A stretch of DNA of 64,000 nucleotides. Origin: Flaccisagitta enflata (Eukaryota). Positions 18,541-52,375 of the stretch are shown here, piece after piece. The stretch lies in contig OZ231126.1 of the NCBI GenBank assembly GCA_965153355.1, positions 17,608,001-17,672,000 of the forward strand. Reading direction: 5' to 3'. The notes under the pieces were generated by a model, which made no database searches, had not been told where the DNA came from, and saw only the letters and a list, made by a program, of their open reading frames with translations. How positions within the stretch are numbered: the first letter of the stretch is position 1; the number at the start of each line of letters is the position of its first letter. The position numbers and the translations under genes were made by a program.

Positions 18541-19116
18541 TAGCAAGTGCGTACCCATATTACTATTATTAGCTATAGTCGGGGGTCTTAAGGAAATGCC
18601 GTGCAAAAATTTTCAGCAAGCTCTATGAATTTGCATACGGGACTATTTTTTCATGCTGAAGACAGCCAAACCATCCGTTTTTCAAAAAAATTTTCGCACC
18701 CCTTCTAAAAATTGCTTTTTAGGCCATTTTTTTCACTTCAAAACGTCATAACGGGTAAAACGTTCAGGTTGGCTCAACAAAATTTTACATGGTGAAATAT
18801 GTGATATTTCTTTGGTTACATACCAAATTTCAGCTTAATCGGTTGAGTAGAAGCGGCGTTATTGAATTTTAAAGTCTAGGTACCTTTTTTCAAAAAAATG
18901 CCAAAATTTTGAAAAAGGGCTATCCCTAAGCTAAATGGTTCAACTTCATGCCACAAGATTTTGCATGGTCAAATGTATGATGAAAACCGACTTGCATGTC
19001 AAATTCTAACCTCTCAGCCCATATAGAAGCAGAGATATGAATGTTCAAAGTTAAGCATATTTTTTTGAGAAAAAATCAAAAACTACAAAAAAATGATTTT
19101 TTCTCCTCAACGACAA

Positions 19117-20713
19117 CTACGTGAGGTTTGTGCTTGTGGTACAAAGTTTAGGGAAAATCCTTATCTTACCATTGAGAAAATAAGGGCTCAGTTTAAGAAA
19201 GAGATAGATAGCCTTGTAGTGAAGCTATCGGGCAAGTTTAGAATATCGCGGACAGCTTTTAAGAAATGGAAGGGTGCTTTTCTGAGAAATTTTAACAATA
19301 AGCTGATGTCATGTAAGGAGACTACTAGCTATAGACTGCCGGTGCTCACGCGTCGGGAATGTAAGGCGGAACTTTTAAAGTTACAGGATAGTTATGTTAT
19401 CACTGTTGTAGATAAGGCTGCGGGCAATTTTGCTTTTACATGTAAAAAGTTCTATTTTTTGAGATTAGCGGAGGAGTTAGGACTCAATAACGATAACCCT
19501 GGAAATGAGACGTACAGGTTTTCACCGAATTCTGAAGGTGAGATAGTTGGTAGTATTAGGACAGATCTTTTGAGATTCAGGATTGCGCCCGACTCTAAAG
19601 AGGAAAAGTTAGCTCTTTTGTATCAGACTCCGAAGTTTCATAAGAATCCGCCAAAGATGCGATACATAGCTGGTAATGTCAGTACGGTCACATCAAGACT
19701 GGACAGAATTGTGGCTAGTGTCTTGAAAATGTGTAAGGAGCATTTCAGGAATTTGTGTAATAAGAATAAGAAATTTTCAGGTGTAAGATATTATTTTGAT
19801 GTTCAGACTAGCATTGAAGTGAAGGATATGTTTAATTCGGCATATGGATTGGCTGACTCTATTTCGATTAATGATTTTTCAACATTGTACACTCTTTTTG
19901 ATCATGACCATCTCATGACCAATATCAATTGGTTGCTTGCTAAGCTTAGCAAGAACTGTGGTATGGGTTTTTTAAGGATTGGTCATGAGAAATCCTGGTG
20001 GGTTGCTAACAATTCAGAAGGATTAGTGTACTCTGTTGGCGAATTTATTGAAATGGTTGACTACCTAATCCGCAATACCCACATAAAAGCTTTTGGACAT
20101 ATTTTCAGGCAAACTTTGGGGATAATTATGGGAGGTAAGAGTTCAGGCTGGCTTTCAGACTGCTCTCTTATGGTGGACGAGTTTAAATATATTGATAATA
20201 AGATAAAATCAGGACTTAGAGATGAGGCAGAATGTTTAAGATTTTTTAGAAGATATCGCGATGATTGTACTTCTATTAATTTAAGTAACCCAAGAGAATG
20301 ATCAGTCAGATCAGGCAAATGTTTTAGACATGCAGGTAAGAATAGAAGGAGGCAATATCATTACTAAGGTTTTTTGTAAGACAGACATTTTTCCATTCCA
20401 TGTAATATCCCTACCCTTTCTTGAGAGTAATCTAAATTCAAGGATTTGTTATAAAGTTTTTTATGGCCAAATCATAAGATTTCAGAGACTGTGTAATTTT
20501 CAGGAAGATTTTGAGGAACGTGTCAAATTTTTATTGGATACATTAACGGGTAGAGGTTATAAATTTGGGCTACTAAAAAGGGAATTTTGTAAATCTGTAA
20601 ACAAATATATTTCAGAATTTCAGAGATGGGCTATCCCTTTGGATTTTGATAAATGGTTTTTAAACATATCCAGAAATATTCCTTCTTCCATTACTTTTCA
20701 GGTAAGAAACTAG
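19117..20713 (+). pseudogene. PLE reverse transcriptase (truncated, frameshifted)
   Basis: PLE-type motifs GTKFRE, DKAAGNF, TPKFHKNPPKMRYI, DFSTLYT, QTLGIIMGGKSS, RRYRDD, ANVLDMQV and thumb region YGQIIRFQRLC..RGY. Frame shifts near 20287 (DDCTSINLS / TQENDQSDQANVLD), consistent with a short deletion. No GIY-YIG follows the thumb. Confidence 0.9.
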
Positions 20714-25094: not shown

Positions 25095-26013
25095 CAGTGG
25101 GTGGCTTAAAGTGGTGTCATTTTCAAATCTGATGACGCCCGCGGAGAAAATGAGACCATTTACATCATAGATGAGAATTCCCAAATTTGGGGGTGATCGG
25201 ATAAACTTTGCTCATACCCGCCACCCCACCCCCCTAGATTTGAGCCATGGTGGCGTTTCTAACAATCCCTGTTTGAACAGGTTACTTTAAAAGATTATAG
25301 CTCCCAAACAAATTGAGCTAGAGACCTCAACTTGGGCTCATTTTAAAGAGCAGACAAAGTTCTTTAAAATGAGCCCAAGTTGAAGTCGGTAGCTCAATTC
25401 GTCTAGGAGCGACAGTCTTTCAAAGTTAATGCTTCTTTTAAGAAAAAGAACCATTTACCCCTCTCTTTGTGGGCCTATATCTTTGAAACGAATTGAGCTG
25501 CTGACCTCAATTTGGGCTCATTTTAAAGAACAGAAAGAGCTCTTTAAAATGAGCCCAAATTGAAGTCTTTAACTCAATTCGTTTGGGGGCAACAGTCTTC
25601 CAAATTTTATGTTATTACGTTATTATAAGAAAAGCATACTGTAAATTCTGTCTGGACATGAGAAAAAAAAATGGTAGTATAATAATAACATTAAAATGAT
25701 GTAAAAAAATCAAACAAACAATATTTCTATAAGATATAAGAAAGTTATAGTGAATTTAATTATATATTTGATTTGATTATTTGATTTTTTGATTATATAT
25801 TTTCTGTACAAGATTTTTGCATGAGTATATAAAGATATGTTTTCATGATAACTGTCTGTAATAAATGATAAAATAAATTATTATTTGTTTATACTTTAAA
25901 TCTCACTTCTGTAGCTTAATTTTTCTCTCTATTGTGCTCACCCCTGTTATCTCAACTTTAGACAGAATCTACTGTACAATCCTTCTAGAAGCATGTTTCA
26001 CGTAAACGCAAGT

Positions 26014-35294: not shown

Positions 35295-37645
35295 CTCAAC
35301 GCACAGACCACCAAATCCCACCTGATGAAATAAGCCCCTGCGACACTGTCCGCTCTCCAGAAAGCCTACACAGACCACCAAATCCCACCCTGATGGAGGA
35401 AGCAAGCCCCTAACATTGCCTCCCTACTCAAGCCACCTACACAGACCACCAAATCCCACCCTGATGAAATAAGCCCCTAACGAGCTTACTTTATCCGCTC
35501 AAGCCACCTCACATGAACCACCAATCCCACCTGATGAAATAAGCCCCTAATGACACTTTGTCCCGCTCAGCCACCTACAGACACCGTCCCACCTGATGGA
35601 AATAGCCCCTAAGGACACTTTGCTCCCTCCAAACACCTACACAGACCACCCAAATCCCCTGATGAAGCCAAGCTTTGCGGCACTTTATCCTCAAGCCACC
35701 CACACAGACCACCAAATCCCCACCTGATGGCAAATCAGCCCCTAACGACTCTTTATCACGCTCAAACCACCTACACAGAACTCTAAAAATCCCACCCTGA
35801 TGAAATAAGCCCCTAACGACACTTTATCCCGCTCAAGCCACCTACACAGACCACCAAATCCCACCCTGATGGGAAATAAGCCCCTAACGACACTTTATCC
35901 CGCTCAAGCCACCTACACAGACCACCAAATCACACCCTGATAGGAAATAAGCCCCTAACGACACTTTATCACTCTAAAGCCCACCCCACAGAGATGCACT
36001 GAAATCCCACCCCGATGAAGCCAGCCTAACGACACTTTATCGCTCATTACCCACACAGACCACCGTCCACCCGATGGGAACTAAGCCCCTAACGACACTT
36101 TATCCAATCAGCCACACCCACACAGACCACCGTCCCACCCCGATGTAAAATAAGCCCCTAACGACACTTTATCTCGCTCAAGCCACCTACACAGACCACC
36201 AAATCCCACCCAGATGGGAAACAAGCCCCTAACGACACTTTATCGCTCAGCCCTCCCTACCTGAACCACCGTCCCACAGCTGGGAAATAAGCCCTGTGGC
36301 TTGCTTTAATAAAACAAACCTTCGCACAGACCACCAAATCACCCACGATGAAATAAGCCCCTAACGTGACACTTTATCCGCTCAAACTGCTGAACCACCG
36401 TCACGATGAAATGACCCCTAACGACACTTTATCCCGCTCAAGCCACTGCTGAACCACAAAATCCCCACCTGATGAAATAAGCCCTAACGACTTCTTTATC
36501 CATCAAGCCACCACGCACAGACCACCAAATCCCACCCTTGGGAAATAAGCCCCTAACGACACTTTATCGCTCCAAGCCACCGCACAGACCACAATCCCAC
36601 CTGATGGGAAATAAGCTAACGACATAATCGCTCCCAAAGCCCCACCACCCACAGACCACCCAAATCCCACACGATGAAATGGCTAACGACACTGTCCCGC
36701 TCAAGCCACCACGACCACAAATCACCCAGATGGGAAATAAGCTGCGGCACGCTGTCCCACGCTCCGTACCCACACAGACCACCGTCCCACCCAGATAGAA
36801 ATAAGCCCCTAACGCTGCTGTCCCGCTCCAAACCACACAGACCACCAAATCACCGATGGGAAATAATAACCTAACCCACTTTATCCCGCTCAAGCCACCC
36901 ACAGACCACCAAATCCCACCCTGATGGGAAATAAGCCCCTAACTACACACATCCCGCTCAAGCCACCCACAGACCACCAAATCCCACCCTGAAGAAATGG
37001 CCTAACCACACTTTATCCTCAAAAGCCACCCACACAGACCACCGTCCCACCTGAGAAATAAGCCCCTAACATTGCTATCCCGACTCAGCTACCCACACAC
37101 AGACCACAGAAATCCCACCATGAGAAATAAGCCCCTAACGACACTTTATCGCTCAAGCCCTGCCAGACCTGGGATCCCTGCATGAAATAAGCTGCGACAC
37201 TTTATCGCTCTCAAGCCACCTACACAGACCTGGAAATCACCTGATGGAAAAATAAGCCCCCTAAACACTTTATCCGCTCAAGCCACCACAGGCCTAATCC
37301 CACCCTGATGAAACCATCCCCTATGACACTATCCGCTCAGCCGCACGAACCACGTCCACCCTGATGGGAAATAAGCCCCTAACAAACACTTTATCCGCTC
37401 AGCCACCGCCTGAACCACCAGAATTCCTGATGGAAAAAAGCCCTAAAAGCACTTTGTCCGCTCAAGCCGCACATTTTAATGAACACCAATCCCCACCTGA
37501 TGAGAGTGCGCCCCCTAACGACACTTTATCCGCTCAAGCCACCCTTTGAGCCACAAATCCCACCCTGATGGAAAATAAACCCTACGCCTTTATCACTCAA
37601 GCCACCACATTTAGACAACGTCACTGATGGGAAACAAGCCCCCTA
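35295..37645 (+). repeat. ~65-70-bp satellite array abutting an assembly gap
   Basis: Unit CACAGACCACCAAATCCCACCCTGATGGGAAATAAGCCCCTAACGACACTTTATCCCGCTCAAGCCACCTA; many scattered indels. Confidence 0.9.
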
Positions 37646-45131: not shown

Positions 45132-45549
45132 AAATAGTCGCAAAAGCGTTAGATGGTCAGCGGTACCCATGCCCTGCTTAAGCAGGCTGTTGAGGTTGAG
45201 GGGGGAGCAGGGCAGCGGCCCCGAAGGGGTCGATGACCTATGCTTTCACACATTTGGGGAATTTTCTCCTTCTCCTTCTCCTCCTCCTCCGTATCCCCCC
45301 TCCCCCCAGCCTCTAGGCCTATATCTCAGCCTGGAGGCCCATGTCCCAGCCTCGAGGCCCAAATCCCAGTCTTGAGGCCCAAATCCTAGAGACTGGGATT
45401 GGGCCTCGAGGATATGGGCCTCAGGCAGATATGGGCCTGGGAGGCTGGGGAGGGGGTGCGGAGGAAGGGGGAGGAGGAGGGGAGAGGAGAAAATTCCCAT
45501 ATGTGTGAAAGCATAGGTCATCGACCCCTTCGGGGCCGCTGCCCAAAAA
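45132..45549 (-). mobile_element. HINE-like family B copy
   Basis: Same ends as 901-1490; long IR GGGCAGCGGCCCCGAAGGGGTCGATGACCTATGCTTTCACACAT. Confidence 0.75.
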
Positions 45550-45707
45550 TGGAGTAAAGCCACTTTATTGACGCTTTCCGAAAAAAAAAAGAATATTCGA
45601 AAGCTTCAAGCTATGCACGATTTATCATCATCATCATTATCAAATCTTAAGAGAAAAAAGTATCAATGATTTCATCTTTTTTTTCTTGTTACCTCTCATT
45701 ATTTCAG

Positions 45708-46449
45708 CTGTCATCGTCGCCGACATACGCGGGGACATCATCCGGCCTTCAAACGATGCATCCTCCTCATCCGACAATTTCTTCGTCTTTTCCACACTCG
45801 GCCTCCTTTCCTAACGCACACTCAACGGCGGCGCCTTCGCAGCCGCGTCCTTCCTCGCAGCAGCACCAACAGCAGCACCAACAGCAGCATCCACAACAAC
45901 GCTCTTCCTCTTCCTCCTCCACTCGACATCCTTCTTCGCCTCTCGACGCCGTCGTCGGCGCTTCCGACGAAGTGTTTGTCGACGCAACAGCAGCTTCCAC
46001 GCCGACGACGCCACCGCCTACAGCAACTTTTTTCATCGGCGGCAGCGGCGCCTCTGACCGACCTCGACGTTCATCGACGCCGGCGTCGGTTCATCATTCC
46101 ACTTCGTCGTCGACGGCGGCAGCATCGACGTCAGCCGCTGCAACAGCAGCACGACCTTCAACTTCTTCATCAATCAATAACGCTGCTGCAGCGTGTCCAT
46201 CCGTTTCCGGCGCCACCGTCATCATAGAAAACGTGGCGTTGAAAGCGGCGCCTCTTTCTCCGGCTGTGACGCCAGTGACGCCGGTCTCTTTACCATCATC
46301 GGCGGCGTCACCGTCGTCTGCGATGGATCCGGCAATGAGGAATTCGAGGGACTCGAGTTCATCGCCGGAAACAACGGGATCGAAAAAACTCATGGGCTGT
46401 TTTGGAGGAGGAAATCATATCAAAAAACACAAAAGAAGCAGAAGTCAAG
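45708..46449 (+). CDS. Host gene exon H
   Basis: Acceptor atttcag|CTG, donor G|gtgaga, phase 0-1, 742 nt, LSSSPTYAG...KKHKRSRSQ. Confidence 0.85.
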
Positions 46450-46461
46450 GTGAGAAGGTGG

Positions 46462-46546
<85 letters not shown>

Positions 46547-46753
46547 CGGACATACCTTGGATTGGAATGTCCGGCGGTCGCATTAAGCTTGACCTCGATT
46601 CTATCCTCTAAGGGTATGGTTCCTAACAATGTAACCCTCGGGTGATTTGTTGAATTTTGGTAACAAAGGTAACAAACATAAGCCCTTAACTACTTTGGTA
46701 AGGATTTTTCTTTTGGGTTAGAGTGAGAGGGATTGTTATTCAAATTCTGTTTT

Positions 46754-46817
46754 ATGGAAAACTAGGAGTGATGCGCGTAGTAACTAGTCAGTGAGGGCTC
46801 ACAAGGCCCTCTTCCAT
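46754..46817 (+). ncRNA. Twister-like ribozyme, type P5 (unit 1)
   Basis: P5 AUGGAA/UUCCAU; AA; P2 CUAG/CUAG; GA (46766-67); T1 GUG pairing with CAC; P1 region AUGCGCGUAG; UAA (46781-83); P4 GAGGGC/GCCCUC with loop UCACAAG; T2 atypical; no P3. Confidence 0.65.
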
Positions 46818-47072
46818 TTATTTTAGTTTGGGTATAGTGAGGGATGTTGTTCCACCTATCATACTACTCAGTACCTTGGATTGGAATGTCCGGCGGTCGC
46901 ATTAAGCTTGACCTCGATTCTATCCTCTAAGGGTATGGTTTCTTAACAATGTAACCCTCGGGTGATTTGTTGAATTTTGGTAACAAAGGTAACAAACATA
47001 AGCCCTAACTACTTTGGTAAGGATTTTTCTTTTGAATTAGAGTGAGAGGGATTATTATTCAAATTCTGTTTT

Positions 47073-47136
47073 ATGGAAAACTAGAAGTGATGCGCGTAGT
47101 AACTAGTCAGTGAGGGCTCACAAGGCCCTCTTCCAT
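47073..47136 (+). ncRNA. Twister-like motif (unit 2) with the catalytic-position G changed to A
   Basis: Same as unit 1 except CUAG-AA-GUG (A at 47085) replaces CUAG-GA-GUG. Confidence 0.55.
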
Positions 47137-47527
47137 TTATTTTAGTTTGGGTATAGTGAGGGATGTTGTTCCACCTATCATACAGATTGTGGAGGATTGT
47201 TGACATAATGCCAGTCGGAAAATCTTGTTGTGACTTGTGAGTTGGATAGCAATGGGAACAATTTCATCATTCATAACTTAATTTGCATATTGGAGTTTTT
47301 GGATTTCGGTTTCTCAAAATGACTAACATTTGATCTTCACTATATTGGAATGATTGCTGAGTATCAATATACTGCTTTAGCCAAGTGAAGAGACAATATG
47401 AGCATTTTCCATGTGCAAAAAACTCATTTTTGTTTCAGTTTTGGTGAAATGTCAATAAAATGATGTTTACAACGTAACCTATATCTACTGAAAAAAGGCT
47501 ATGGTATTTGGAATACTGCCTGCTCAT

Positions 47528-48028: not shown

Positions 48029-48783
48029 CTCGGCCGCCAACTTAGCTAATAGTTAGCTAAATTTAGCTACTACAGAGGGGTGCTTAGCTACCAAAAAAGG
48101 CGTTTAGCTACCGGCTACTAATTTAGATACTTTTGACGATTTCCTTAAGATACTCAAGCTTGTATTTAGCTACTTGAGACTGATGCTTTTTGCTACAAAA
48201 TAACTTTTTATTGACCAATATATACAGAAGGAACGGTTATAAGAGGTGTGGAGGGACCAAAATTGTAGCACCCCCTACAGCCAACACCATTACTATATAT
48301 TTCTTTACTCTGGGTAGTGGGTTATACTTTAGATAAATTCTTTTTTTTTTCATCAAGGCGATTTTTGAAATTTTGTTGAGAACCTTTCAAAATCTTTAAT
48401 TTTCCCCCACTTTTGGAGGGATTCAAAAACTCTGAAATTTTAGCATAAAAAGGTCAACTATGGTAATTCTAAGAGGAATCTCAAAAAAAGCCTGGATGAA
48501 AAAATTTGTTTTTACCTAAGGTATGAGCCACTGACCAGAAAAAAAAAAGCATTAGGGTGGGCTGTAGAGCTCTACAGAGGGGGTGCTACAACTTTTGGTC
48601 CCTCCACACCTGTTTAAACGGTTCCTCCTGTATATATCAGTCAATAAAAAGTTATTTGTATATTTTTTGTTAACTGCCTTTTGCTACTTACTGTAGATAC
48701 TGGAGGTTTTCATTTGTCATAAGAGGGAAAATGTATGTGTCTCTGTCTCTCTGTCTGTCAGTCTGTCTGTCTCTCTGTCTCTC

Positions 48784-48873
<90 letters not shown>

Positions 48874-50227: not shown

Positions 50228-51565
50228 TTTTGTCCGCGACGGAATATCATTCCGACGCGGACTATAATTCAAGGCGGGTGGGTGTCGTCGTCGTCGTCGT
50301 CGTTGTCGTCGTCGTTGTCGTCGTAACGGATTTTAAAAAATGGATAACTTTTTTATGCTTTGACCGATTTGGTTCATATTTGGTGGGAAGTTGTGCTAGG
50401 GTAAGGCGCTTTACATCCTATCCGATTTTTGTGATCCGACCAACCCAACCGGCCCAACCAGCCTACCGGCCTAAAAGTGAAAAACGTGCATAACTTTGGC
50501 ATTTTTCAACCGATTTGGCTGAAATTTGGTATGGAGTCTCTAAATGGAAGGCCTCAACATATGTATATGATTTATATGCATTTGAGCATGCTAACCGGCC
50601 AAACCGACCTACCACCCAACCAGCCAACCGGCCTAAAAGTGAAAAACTTGCGTAACTTTGTCATTTTTCAACTGATTTGGTTGAAACTTGGTATGGAGTC
50701 TCTAAATGGAAGAACTCAACATATGCACACTATTTATCCTGTCAAACCAGCCTACCACCCAACCAGCCTACCAGCCTAAAAATGAAAAATGTGCATATCT
50801 TTGGCATTTTTCAACCGATTTTGTTGAAATTTGGTGTGGAGTCTCTAAATGGAAGGACTCAACATACATATGTGATTTATATGCATTTGAGCATGCTAAC
50901 CGGCCAAACCGACCTACCACCCAACCAGCCTACCTACCAAAAACTTGCATAACTTTGTCATTTTTCAACCAATTTGGTTGAAACTTGGTATGGAGTCTCT
51001 AAATGGAAGAACTCAACATATGCACACTATTTATCCTGTCAAACCAGCCTACCACTCAACCAGCCTACCAGCCTAAAAGTGAAAAATGTGCATATCTTTG
51101 GCGTTTTTCAACCAATTTGGTTGAAATTTGGTATGGAGTCTCTAAATGGAAGGACTCAGCACATGTATGTGATTTATTTATGTTTGAGCATGCCAACCAG
51201 CCAAACCCACCTACCACCCAACCAGCTTACCGGCCTAAAAGTTAAAAACTTGCATAAATTGGACATTTTTCAACCAATTTGGTTGAAACTTGGTATGGAG
51301 TCTCTAAATGAAAGAACTCAACATATGCACACTATTTATCCAAACCAGTTTACCAACCAACCACCCTACTAGCCTAAAAGTGAAAAATGTGCATAACTTT
51401 GCCATTTTTCATCGGATTTGCATGAAACTTTGTATGGAGGCTCTTAATGTAAAGAATTATAGTTTTAGCGAACTTACGAGGTTAGCGATCTTTTGGTCAT
51501 AGCGATCTTATGGAATTGGTGATCTATAACCCCCTTCCGTCGCGGACCCAGATACTGATCAGATT
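50228..51565 (+). mobile_element. HINE-like element carrying a ~300-bp dimeric tandem array
   Basis: Subterminal IR GTCCGCGACGGAA (50232-50244) / TTCCGTCGCGGAC (51535-51547); alternating ~170 and ~130-bp units with TGGTATGGAGTCTCTAAATGGAAG at ~50440-51440. Confidence 0.7.
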
Positions 51566-52375
51566 TTTTTTATAAAATCAATCTTGAAAATGGTAGATTT
51601 GTGGAAAAAATACAGATCCTTTAGATTATTCAATCAGAAACTGATTCATGACAAATGTTCTTGAGCTCTCCTAAAACAAAAATTCAATTTTTTTAATCTT
51701 TTCTGATGTCATATTGCATGATCTTCCGACTCCGTCATCCTGTTTCTGAGAAGCGGCGCTTCCCGCTTCTCCACAATCTGTATGGCTGATCGACAGATGC
51801 TTGTACAAGTGTACCCAATAAGGAGCTGATATGACAATTAATATGTTCATGTGCTTTGCTCCGCTTTTAGCACGCCCCCGTTGATTGTCTGAAATGATTT
51901 ATTTTTTCGAGAGCGGCGATCACGTTAGAATTGCCCTTTTGAGTGCATTTGAGCACAGAACTTGTCTTATCTTTCTTAGATTGTTTAAAGAGACATTTCC
52001 GGTTTGGGTTAAGAAAGAGAAAAAAAAAGATTTAATTTGCCCTACTTTAGGTCGCTTTTACTCGCGAATGTATAAAAGTCGTTAAATCGAGTGTGGTTGA
52101 TCCGTCCGTCGTTCCGTCCGAGCTTAGCCGTATCGACCATGAATGTTTTTTTTTACGGCGGCCTAAACGGGGACAACTAATGATACAAAGAGTATAATTT
52201 TCCTTCACCACGTCTAGAACTAAGCTTGGGACCTAAGTTATGGTCTCTAGGTAATACTATGGGATGAATGGGATATCCCAGCCTCTCTTTTTTTACTTGG
52301 TTAGGTTGGCCTTGTTTCTTTTTTTTTTTTCTTTTTTTGATTTCAACTGTCTTTTTCGCATTTTCTTATCAATAG

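What the first reader, a model, noticed from the sequence alone, without database searches (positions are those of the whole stretch)
46553..47183. 319-bp tandem repeat with one twister-like motif per unit: candidate twister retrozyme
Seen: two near-identical non-coding 319-bp units in an intron. Each has a P5-type arrangement AUGGAA-AA-CUAG-GA-GUG-[AUGCGCGU]AG-UAA-CUAG-UC-AGU-GAGGGC-UCACAAG-GCCCUC-UUCCAU, with T1 as CAC/GUG. The P1 region AUGCGCGU is again self-complementary (8 bp with two G-U pairs). Other short hairpins occur in the unit (GGUC..GACC, CCUUA..UAAGG). Established: metazoan non-LTR retrozymes are tandem repeats of a few hundred bp with hammerheads that yield monomeric circular RNAs. 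Inference: this is the twister equivalent, releasing a 319-nt monomer (cuts at 46781/46782 and one period later). Caveats: T2 is non-canonical, P3 is absent and there is an extra AG before UAA.
Basis: partly seen in the sequence, partly recalled or inferred. Interest (0 to 1): 0.85.

Follow-up and report, generated by a model that had tools for sequence, protein, structure and literature searches.

The report
Twister-like ribozyme motif in abundant repeat
Two tandem copies of a 319-base non-coding repeat, from a family very common in marine plankton DNA, carry a fold that fits a variant twister self-cutting RNA, but cutting has not been shown.

Summary
TRF finds 2.0 copies of a 319-bp unit at 46553-47183 (97% alike), and the motif string is at 46754-46817. 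Unit 2 differs at one key base (47085 A for G).

The unit belongs to a large family. One marine metagenome run gave 4442 matching contigs, and three marine RNA libraries also hold it. Of 112 metagenome-derived translations analysed, 87 reach the same element end (about 46863) with at least 10 flank residues. 82 of those 87 flanks are unrelated to one another and 2 show the window's tandem junction.

No Rfam ribozyme model matches, even at E<=10. Read against the published twister architecture, the motif nevertheless has every element in type-P5 order: UAA, a 4-bp P2, GA, a 3-bp T1 plus A.A, U.A, a 2-bp T2, P4 and P5. Both pseudoknots are kept by paired changes (GGG/CCC to GUG/CAC; GC/GC to UC/GG). 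The chance rate for this descriptor is 0.004 per window.

Against it:
- 4-5 "invariant" bases differ.
- P1 has only 2-3 bp.
- In the window copy a competing helix is predicted to beat P2.
- Cleavage is untested.

Verdict: a probable but unproven twister-class variant in a retrozyme/SINE-like repeat (about 0.45).

The parts
46553..46863 (+). Repeat unit 1, a discrete element of about 311 nt
   Evidence: TRF and alignment. The end at about 46863 is shared by 87 of 112 metagenome translations that reach it with at least 10 flank residues.
46864..46871 (+). 8-nt junction (CTACTCAG) between the two units. The same junction is read in tandem copies elsewhere.
   Evidence: P0136 and P0180 read through it. 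Contigs of X16, X17, X20 and X2 bridge it (table 8).
46872..47183 (+). Repeat unit 2. The array stops at the family's fixed 3' end.
   Evidence: There is no cover to the right of 47185 in any run (table 2).
46754..46817 (+). Twister-like domain of unit 1, in type-P5 order
   Evidence: The sequence read against the segment map of PMC8501958 Table 1 and the contacts described in PMC5408937. It is the only descriptor hit in the window.
46754..46759 (+). P5 5' strand AUGGAA, pairing with 46812-46817 UUCCAU
   Evidence: Pair probabilities 0.63-1.0. Present in the MFE.
46762..46765 (+). P2 3' strand CUAG, pairing with 46784-46787 CUAG. It is preceded by AA(A) at 46759/60-46761, the L2 3' strand.
   Evidence: Four Watson-Crick pairs by sequence. 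Predicted probability is 0.13 in the window copy and 0.94 with the family variant 46780 U.
46766..46770 (+). L1 3' strand GAGUG. G46766 is the candidate general base, A46767 the A.A partner, and G46768-U-G46770 is T1.
   Evidence: Mapping onto GAGGG. Roles taken.
46771..46780 (+). P1 mini-hairpin AUGCGCGUAG: 2 bp plus a CGCG loop. The outer A.G becomes A-U or G.U in family variants.
   Evidence: Variants 46771 A>G and 46780 G>T are, table 3.
46781..46783 (+). L1 5' strand UAA. The predicted cut is between U46781 and A46782; the next one is at 47100/47101.
   Evidence: Position relative to P1 and P2 as described. Not tested.
46788..46792 (+). L2 5' strand. U46788 and C46789 form the T2 strand, and AGU is a linker in place of P3.
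   Evidence: Mapping onto the conserved GC. P3 is absent in about 20% of twisters.
46793..46811 (+). P4 (GAGGG/CCCUC) with L4 (C/U)UCACAAGG. CAC is T1, A46803 forms A.A, U46799.A46804 pair, and G46805-G46806 is T2.
   Evidence: P4 pair probability 1.0. L4 compared with GUCCCAAGC. 46798 C>T is at 40-70% in X2, X16 and X20, and 0 of 24.4 in X17.
47073..47136 (+). Twister-like domain of unit 2, with A at 47085 in place of the general-base G
   Evidence: It fails the descriptor.
46461..46546 (+). (GTT)28.7 microsatellite, 6 nt before the left end of the array
   Evidence: TRF.

Best explanation
The 319-bp unit is a copy, here a dimer, of a very abundant non-coding repeat of a marine eukaryote. The family exists both as tandem arrays with a constant 8-nt junction and as solo copies at many loci that share one fixed 3' end.

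Its best-conserved block (46754-46817) is most likely a diverged type-P5 twister-class self-cleaving ribozyme. P5 closes the domain. P2 (CUAG/CUAG) and P4 flank the loops. T1 (GUG with CAC, plus A46767.A46803) and T2 (C46789-G46805, U46788.G46806) tie L4 to L1 and L2. G46766 and A46782 would be the catalytic pair, and the chain would be cut between U46781 and A46782.

Transcripts of an array would then fall into 319-nt RNAs with 5'-OH and 2',3'-cyclic phosphate ends. A cellular ligase could close these into circles, as in hammerhead retrozymes. Reverse transcription from a fixed priming site near 46863 would give new solo or tandem copies.

What is shown: the repeat, the family, the tandem and solo arrangement, the fixed end, and the match to the twister connectivity. 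What is inferred: folding, cleavage, circularisation and retro-copying.

The window's own dimer is probably a poor ribozyme. Unit 1 carries G46780, which favours a competing helix, and unit 2 has lost the general-base G.
For: 1. All twister elements are present in the correct permuted order, when the sequence is compared with the segment map P1|UAA|P2|GC|P3|P4|GUCCCAAGC|P4|(G/A)UAAA|P2|GAGGG|P1 (PMC8501958 Table 1) and with the crystal-structure contacts (PMC5408937, passages).
2. The differences from consensus come in pairs that keep both pseudoknots. The T1 middle pair changes G-C to U-A, and the T2 outer pair changes G-C to U.G. Replaced pairs in T1 and T2 retain activity, C-to-U wobbles are tolerated and P1 is dispensable (PMC5113685). 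Wobbles in both pseudoknots, P1/P2/P4 imperfections and any N-1 base are tolerated, and about 94% of some 2600 natural candidates cleave (PMC11662667, abstract and section 32).
3. The descriptor gives 1 hit in 128 kb of window sequence, at this site, against 0.004 expected. A closing 6-bp helix has a chance of 0.03.
4. Within the 64-nt motif, only 46771, 46780 and 46798 vary at >=10% in the family (table 3). All three lie in the 15 positions the twister model leaves free, p=0.011, or 0.023 with a looser set.
5. The motif bins carry the highest or near-highest depth in all four runs laid (table 2).
6. With the common variant 46780 U, the predicted ensemble adopts P2 (0.94) and a 3-bp P1 (0.43), and the competing helix vanishes.
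7. The context fits metazoan retrozymes: a 150-450-bp tandem repeat with GC below 45% (PMC7229834). Here the unit is 319 bp with GC 39.5% and 70% of bases paired. The family is present in 7 RNA libraries.
Against: 1. No twister, twister-sister or other ribozyme family of Rfam matches. This holds at gathering score and at E<=5 over the whole window, and at E<=10 over 901-nt and 86-nt stretches.
2. The counterparts of G13, C26, C31 and G48 differ from bases reported as more than 97% conserved or intolerant to single change. The near-invariant G-C pair that closes L4 is C.C or U.C here; imperfections at that pair lower mean cleavage from 0.76 to 0.58.
3. P1 has 2 bp, or 3 in some variants.
4. In the window copy P2 has probability 0.13 against 0.77 for a competing helix (46761-64 with 46778-81). 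The model secondary structure scores -9.9 to -12.2 against an MFE of -20.2 kcal/mol. The 46771 G variant lowers P2 to 0.01.
5. Fold z-scores are unremarkable: -1.7 for the motif, -1.3 for the unit and -1.6 for the circle.
6. In 112 mostly solo copies, the codons over the core are no better kept (84-93%) than those over the 3' tail (78-95%). Density of variable sites is not lower than in the next 164 nt (p=0.57).
7. The family's fixed 3' end is 82 nt from the proposed cut.
8. The descriptor was fitted after the fact.
9. No read ends, no circles and no cleavage assay. Presence in RNA libraries does not prove transcription.
Confidence: 0.45

Rival explanations
1. This is an ordinary SINE-like or satellite-like repeat with no catalytic RNA. 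The twister resemblance would then be a chance fit found by pattern matching, and the conserved block would serve something else or nothing.
For: - No Rfam hit.
- 4-5 consensus bases are missing, P1 is tiny and both pseudoknots are weak.
- Thermodynamics favours a competing helix in the window copy.
- The core shows no excess conservation in 112 copies.
- The fixed 3' end with unrelated flanks (82 of 87), and possible 5' truncations, are typical of retroposed SINE-type copies and need no ribozyme.
- The scan covers very many windows, so rare chance fits will occur.
Against: - The chance rate is 0.004 per window and 2e-5 per unit, times 0.03 for P5.
- The deviations from consensus are pairwise compensated rather than random.
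- All three common polymorphisms avoid the core (p=0.011).
- The 46780 U subfamily folds into the model.
- A constant templated 8-nt junction in tandem copies is not expected from independent SINE insertions.
Confidence: 0.4
2. The conserved block is a structured RNA or DNA element of another kind. Examples would be a reverse-transcriptase recognition or priming structure for the partner retroelement, a Pol III related signal, or a different, undescribed ribozyme that cuts at the unit ends (about 46863 and 46872).
For: - Both ends of the unit are defined. The window array starts at unit position 1 and stops at the family's fixed end.
- The unit MFE brings the two ends together, pairing positions 62-68 with 306-312.
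- P5 and P4 are robust helices.
- An RT-like ORF lies in the same window.
Against: - No Rfam family, HDV-like ones included, matches the unit.
- ARAGORN finds no tRNA-like head.
- The junction region fold has z = -0.28.
- There is no sequence similarity between the unit and the RT-like element.
- I did not run a dedicated HDV-like descriptor.
Confidence: 0.12

Closest known systems
Twister ribozyme, type P5 permutation (class reviewed in PMC5408937; natural variants tested in PMC11662667)
   Same: - The order P5 - AA(A) - P2 - GA+T1 - P1 hairpin - UAA - P2 - T2 dinucleotide - linker - P4/L4 - P5.
- A 4-bp P2.
- An A two places after the cut.
- G and A at the start of the 3' L1 strand.
- An L4 of type N-U-(T1)-A-A-G-N.
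- Absence of P3, as in about 20% of twisters.
   Different: - T1 is GUG/CAC rather than GGG/CCC.
- T2 is UC/GG rather than GC/GC.
- The closing G-C pair of L4 is missing.
- P1 has only 2-3 bp.
- No covariance-model match.
- Activity is unknown.
Metazoan non-LTR retrozymes: tandem repeats with type I hammerheads that give small circRNAs (PMC7229834)
   Same: - Non-coding tandem units of a few hundred bp, from dimers to multimers.
- GC below 45%.
- High copy number.
- Presence in RNA libraries.
- An RT-encoding element in the same genome.
   Different: - No hammerhead; the candidate ribozyme is of the twister class.
- Circles are not shown.
- Many solo copies share a fixed 3' end.
T-variant twisters at the 5' end of Perere-3 (RTE) retrotransposons of Schistosoma mansoni (PMC8501958). 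Truncated twisters in RTE elements are also mentioned in PMC7761336.
   Same: A twister-class motif carried by a retroelement, with relaxed P1 requirements.
   Different: Those are type P1, with the canonical loops GUCCCAAGC and GAGGG. They sit at the element's 5' end and cut there. Here the motif is permuted, internal (82 nt from the 3' end), and lies in a non-coding unit.
SINE-like hammerhead repeats (schistosome Sm-alpha, newt satellite 2). The names are recalled; the newt satellite is mentioned in PMC7229834.
   Same: A short non-coding unit found both in tandem and dispersed, with a small ribozyme domain.
   Different: The ribozyme class differs. No Pol III boxes or tRNA head were demonstrated here.

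Membership tests
Twister ribozyme | Match to the curated covariance models (Rfam twister P1, P3, P5 and twister-sister) | tested here: not met
   No hit at gathering score, at E<=5 over the whole window, or at E<=10 over 901 nt and 86 nt.
Twister ribozyme | Essential stems P1, P2 and P4 in a permitted circular permutation | tested here: inconclusive
   The order is correct for type P5. P4 pair probability is 1.0. P2 has 4 Watson-Crick pairs by sequence, but probability 0.13 in the window copy and 0.94 in the 46780 U variant. P1 has only 2-3 bp.
Twister ribozyme | N-A cleavage step followed by A (L1 5' strand UAA) next to P1 and P2 | tested here: met
   U46781-A46782-A46783 lies between P1 and P2.
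Twister ribozyme | General-base G and following A at the start of the 3' L1 strand | tested here: met
   G46766 and A46767 in unit 1. Unit 2 has A at 47085; in CHiTA a G-to-A change there gave 0.54 against 0.76.
Twister ribozyme | Pseudoknot T1: three pairs between L4 and L1, plus A.A | tested here: met
   G46768-C46802, U46769-A46801, G46770-C46800, and A46767 with A46803. This is complementarity only; the middle pair differs from the consensus G-C.
Twister ribozyme | Pseudoknot T2: two pairs between the L2 dinucleotide and the 3' end of L4 | tested here: met
   C46789-G46805 and U46788.G46806, a wobble in place of G-C. Wobbles were tolerated in CHiTA.
Twister ribozyme | At least ten nucleotides more than 97% conserved in L1 and L4 | tested here: not met
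   The counterparts of G13, C26, C31 and G48 differ, as does the G that closes L4. The full list of the ten was not visible to me, because it is given in figures and supplements that were not held.
Twister ribozyme | Site-specific self-cleavage | not testable with these tools
   All runs were kept as contigs, which cannot show RNA ends.
Metazoan non-LTR retrozyme | Non-coding tandem repeat of 150-450 bp, dimer to multimer, GC below 45% | tested here: met
   319 bp in 2 copies, GC 39.5%. Tandem read-through is seen in P0136 and in bridging contigs.
Metazoan non-LTR retrozyme | Type I hammerhead ribozyme in each unit | tested here: not met
   No hammerhead family at E<=10.
Metazoan non-LTR retrozyme | Expressed as monomeric linear and circular RNA | not testable with these tools
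   The unit is held by 7 RNA libraries, but contigs cannot show circles, and DNA carry-over is not excluded.
SINE | Dispersed copies with a fixed 3' end and unrelated flanks | tested here: met
   87 of 112 translations reach the end at about 46863 with at least 10 flank residues. 82 of those flanks are unrelated, with a median pairwise identity of 8%.
SINE | Pol III head derived from tRNA, 7SL or 5S, and a simple-repeat or A-rich tail | tested here: not met
   ARAGORN finds no tRNA. No Rfam tRNA, 7SL or 5S match. No A-rich tail at 46864 or at 47184.

The most novel reading that the evidence does not exclude
This would be the first natural twister-based retrozyme. The picture is a non-coding 319-nt element, hugely abundant in marine zooplankton DNA and present in marine RNA libraries. 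Its transcripts would be cut by a twister lineage with co-varied pseudoknots (GUG/CAC and UC/GG) that covariance models cannot see. The pieces would be closed into circles and then copied by rolling-circle reverse transcription from one fixed priming site. That mechanism would explain three observations: the constant junction inside arrays, the fixed 3' end of more than 80 solo copies, and arrays that stop just short of whole turns, as here at 1.98 units.
Probability: 0.25. Interest if true: 0.85.

Novelty: new variant of a known kind. Interest (0 to 1): 0.62.

Why it matters
All retrozymes described so far use hammerheads. In my full-text searches I found no paper reporting a natural twister inside tandem repeats or retrozymes.

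A working twister here would matter for four reasons:
- It would show that the circle-forming retroelement lifestyle has been reached with a second ribozyme class.
- It would be a natural counterpart of the engineered twister-flanked circRNA constructs mentioned in PMC7229834.
- It would show that twisters with paired changes in both pseudoknots exist in nature and escape Rfam-based surveys.
- It would point to a very abundant small RNA in marine plankton.

If it does not cleave, the finding is an ordinary abundant repeat and a caution about motif matching.

Tried and rejected
1. Fetching family DNA failed. Exact-pattern scans found 0 matches in metagenome contigs (two seeds), genome contigs and viral contigs. 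No genome is held for the window.
2. Four sequence words from the unit occur in no paper of the library.
3. Earlier findings of the scan gave nothing for this genome or sequence. The one word hit is an unrelated phage RNA.
4. There is no tRNA-like head.
5. Fold z-scores for the unit, the minus strand, the linear element and the junction are all unremarkable.
6. A P1-order twister descriptor found 0 hits. A canonical GUCCCAAGC word at 52232 (minus strand) has a flanking stem but no other twister part, and no Rfam hit, so I take it as chance.
7. Expression cannot be concluded. The RNA runs are contigs. The single-copy flank (47185-47400) is uncovered even in the DNA run, so it cannot serve as a silent control. 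The summed depths are not copy numbers.
8. Core positions show no excess conservation in 112 translations.
9. A translated search with the unit's 5' region found nothing. A 33-aa query was too short.
10. I considered an HDV-like ribozyme at the unit start only by eye. P1 would have 5 bp and odd spacing, so I dropped the idea without a proper descriptor search.
11. The RT-like ORF (19069-20301) has no Pfam or PDB match.
I could not see the RNArobo descriptors of PMC11662667, or the full twister alignments that would show whether co-varied T1/T2 variants are already known.
Full report
**Observation.** TRF finds a 319-bp period at 46553-47183 with 2.0 copies, 97% matches and score 1211. The two units align at 98% column identity, with eight differing columns before the array ends. 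blastn finds no other copy in the window. The array starts 6 nt after a (GTT)28.7 microsatellite. It lies about 100 nt after a long low-complexity ORF (45651-46449) that ends at a GT. An intronic position is plausible but not shown. Unit 2 differs within the motif at 47085, which is A where unit 1 has G.

**Database tests.** No Rfam family reaches gathering score anywhere in the window. No ribozyme family of any class appears at E<=5 over the whole window, or at E<=10 over 46400-47300 or 46745-46830. ARAGORN finds no tRNA. On the curated models, this is not a recognisable twister.

**The unit belongs to a large family.**
- No genome is held for the window. Exact-pattern scans of the JGI metagenome, prokaryote genome and viral contig collections found nothing.
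- The run index lists 20 runs from 11 studies that hold part of the stretch. One coded organism has a word share of 0.79. Marine and seawater metagenomes have 0.36-0.49, and 7 marine RNA libraries have 0.23-0.36.
- Laying four runs at >=85% likeness gave 4442 contigs from DNA run X2. By identity these were 770 at 99% or more, 1458 at 95-99%, 1602 at 90-95% and 612 under 90%. The RNA runs X16, X17 and X20 gave 394, 6 and 37 contigs.
- Cover stops at 47185 in every run. It is highest or near-highest over the motif bins (46750-46807 and 47098-47155) and lowest over the middle of the unit.
- Contigs bridge the unit junction. One X17 contig covers 46768-46888 with no mismatch.
- These are contigs. 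They show presence and variants. They do not show copy number, transcription or RNA ends.

**A second route to family members.** The minus-strand frame over 46765-46863 is open. Searching the 60-aa ORF of unit 2 found 14 metagenome 'proteins'. A profile search of 1.84 billion representatives found 113. I dropped three long, unrelated, multi-stretch proteins (P0224-P0226) and analysed 112.
- 87 of the 112 reach the repeat end with at least 10 flank residues. In 82 of these the flanks are unrelated to one another, with a median pairwise identity of 8%.
- P0136 and P0180 carry the window's own tandem junction. P0136 reads through more than one full unit. Three others share a different flank.
- The family therefore has a fixed plus-strand 3' end at about 46863, many solo insertions, and tandem arrays with a constant 8-nt junction. 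One solo copy lies just after a ribosomal protein L38e exon (P0126).
- The window's array ends at that same position (47183) and begins 8 nt after it in phase (46553).
- This sample is biased. The standard tandem junction puts a stop codon in this frame, so tandem copies are under-represented.

**Is the motif a twister?** I compared it with the segment map in Table 1 of PMC8501958: P1 | UAA | P2 | GC | P3 | P4 | GUCCCAAGC | P4 | (G/A)UAAA | P2 | GAGGG | P1. I also used the crystal-structure contacts summarised in PMC5408937 (passages). In type-P5 order the candidate reads as follows:
- P5: 46754-59 with 46812-17.
- L2 3' strand: AA(A).
- P2: CUAG 46762-65 with CUAG 46784-87.
- L1 3' strand: GAGUG 46766-70.
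- P1 hairpin: 46771-80.
- U46781 | A46782 A46783, with the predicted cut between the first two.
- T2 strand: U46788 and C46789.
- An AGU linker in place of P3, which is absent in about 20% of twisters.
- P4: GAGGG with CCCUC.
- L4: (C/U)UCACAAGG.

The tertiary partners are all available:
- T1: G46768-C46802, U46769-A46801 and G46770-C46800.
- The A.A pair: A46767 with A46803.
- The U.A pair: U46799 with A46804.
- T2: C46789-G46805 and U46788.G46806.

Relative to consensus, the T1 middle pair has changed on both sides (G-C to U-A). The T2 outer pair has also changed on both sides (G-C to U.G).

Published mutational data bear on exactly these changes:
- In Osa-1-4, T1 and T2 pairs can be replaced by other pairs with retained activity. 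C-to-U wobbles are tolerated and P1 is dispensable (PMC5113685, passages).
- Among about 2600 natural candidates, about 94% cleave. Wobbles in both pseudoknots, imperfections in P1, P2 and P4, and any base at N-1 are tolerated.
- An imperfect fourth P4 pair lowers mean cleavage from 0.76 to 0.58. A G-to-A change at the general base gives 0.54. Changes at the A after the cut, or at the next A, abolish activity (PMC11662667, abstract and section 32).
- The candidate keeps both A's and, in unit 1, the G.

**Chance.** A descriptor coding this connectivity, with G.U pairs allowed, hits once on both strands of the window, at this site. Unit 2 fails it because of 47085 A. A first-order Markov model gives 3.3e-8 hits per base per strand. 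That is 0.004 per window and 2e-5 per unit. A closing 6-bp helix in the right place has a chance of 0.03. The descriptor was written after seeing the site, and the scan is very large, so these figures overstate significance.

**Family variation.** Within 46754-46817, only 46771 (A>G, 20-35% in X2, X16 and X20), 46780 (G>T, 26-52% in those runs) and 46798 (C>T, 40-70% in those runs) vary at >=10%. X17, whose depth at these places is only 24-32, shows none of the three. Five rows of that table were not shown.
- All three fall among the 15 positions that the twister model leaves free: the P1 region, N-1, the linker and L4 position 1. The probability of that is p=0.011, or 0.023 with a looser set.
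- 46771 and 46780 face each other at the outer end of P1. The window copy has A.G there, and the variants would give A-U or G.U. Whether the two variants are linked is unknown.
- Stems do not vary, so there is no covariation evidence either way.
- In the 112 translations, per-codon conservation is 84-93% over the core and 78-95% over the tail. There is no extra constraint, as expected if most are dead insertions. Isolated copies break or weaken pairs. P0123, for example, has lost the general base and one T2 pair.
- Density of variable sites in the motif is not lower than in the following 164 nt (p=0.57). It is lower than in the preceding 92 nt (p=0.04).

**Thermodynamics.** The MFE of the motif and of the whole unit contains P5 and P4 but not P2. 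It pairs 46761-64 with 46778-81 instead. In the window copy P2 has probability 0.13 against 0.77 for this competitor. The pseudoknot-free model scores -9.9 to -12.2 against -20.2 kcal/mol. With the common variant 46780 U the competitor disappears, P2 rises to 0.94 and a 3-bp P1 to 0.43. With 46771 G, P2 falls to 0.01. Fold z-scores are unremarkable. The circular monomer has GC 39.5% and 70% of its bases paired.

**Comparison with known systems.**
- Metazoan non-LTR retrozymes are 150-450-bp, low-GC tandem repeats with type I hammerheads. They give monomeric linear and circular RNAs (PMC7229834, passages). This family shares the DNA architecture but has no hammerhead.
- Twister variants are known at the 5' ends of RTE-type elements (PMC8501958; PMC7761336). 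Those are type P1, canonical in their loops, and terminal.
- My searches found no report of a natural twister in tandem repeats or retrozymes. The library lacks most subscription papers and all supplements.
- An RT-like ORF lies at 19069-20713. It has 172 metagenome homologues and language-model features of reverse transcriptases, but no Pfam or PDB match. It shares no sequence with the unit.

**Verdict.** The repeat and the family are real. The element is a retrozyme/SINE-like non-coding repeat with a fixed 3' end and a templated tandem junction. The twister reading is structurally coherent, statistically unlikely by chance, and consistent with what twisters are known to tolerate. It fails the curated models and the conserved-nucleotide criterion, has weak helices, and is untested. 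I put a functional twister-class variant at about 0.45, at least in the family's 46780 U form. A chance look-alike in an ordinary repeat is at about 0.40, and another function of the block at about 0.12. The fixed 3' end is not explained by the proposed cut. One speculative reconciliation is rolling-circle reverse transcription from a fixed priming site on a circular monomer. That would also explain the constant internal junction and the 1.98-unit array.

Noticed in passing
window 19069-20713 (+): A long ORF in two overlapping frames (410 aa and 142 aa). It has 172 homologues among metagenome proteins. The protein atlas's nearest clusters are named reverse transcriptase (score 0.96), but there is no Pfam or PDB match. 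It is probably a retroelement RT of a poorly described family.
   Followed up: partly
P0126 (metagenome protein): Another copy of the repeat lies just after an exon of a ribosomal protein L38e gene, with the exon read through into the repeat (Pfam PF01781 on record). This resembles the position of the window's array just after an ORF.
   Followed up: no
P0121 and P0132: P0121's contig carries two copies of the repeat's 3' part in inverted orientation, about 90 nt apart. P0132 has a short terminal fragment followed about 150 nt later by a second copy.
   Followed up: no
flanks of 87 family copies: The residue just outside the fixed repeat end is L, V, I, M or F in 50 of 87 cases. That puts an A at the second base beyond the end on the plus strand. 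It may be a target-site preference, or the element may run 1-3 nt further.
   Followed up: no
window 45256-45499 and 25284-25426: Sub-threshold matches on both strands to plant miRNA-precursor models (MIR7533, MIR6457; 41-65 bits against gathering scores of 140-230). The pattern suggests long inverted repeats, perhaps a MITE-like element. A 20-nt tandem repeat lies at 45305-45386.
   Followed up: no
window 35805-37142: Weak blastn matches recur at a spacing of 71 nt (35805, 35876, 35947) and again near 36545-37142. This suggests another tandem repeat.
   Followed up: no
window 50435-51372 (+): Successive ORF translations repeat the same peptide of about 99 aa (...LNGRTQH.Y.IY...), which indicates a tandem repeat of about 297 bp.
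   Followed up: no
window 52232 (-): The canonical twister L4 word GUCCCAAGC, flanked by a 6-of-7-bp stem and preceded by UAA. It has no GAGGG or T2 partner and no Rfam hit, so I take it as chance.
   Followed up: yes
whole window: The window is very rich in microsatellites: (GTT)n, (CT)n, (GA)n, poly-T/C tracts and (TCTC)n at 48740-48869. It also holds 33 N.
   Followed up: no
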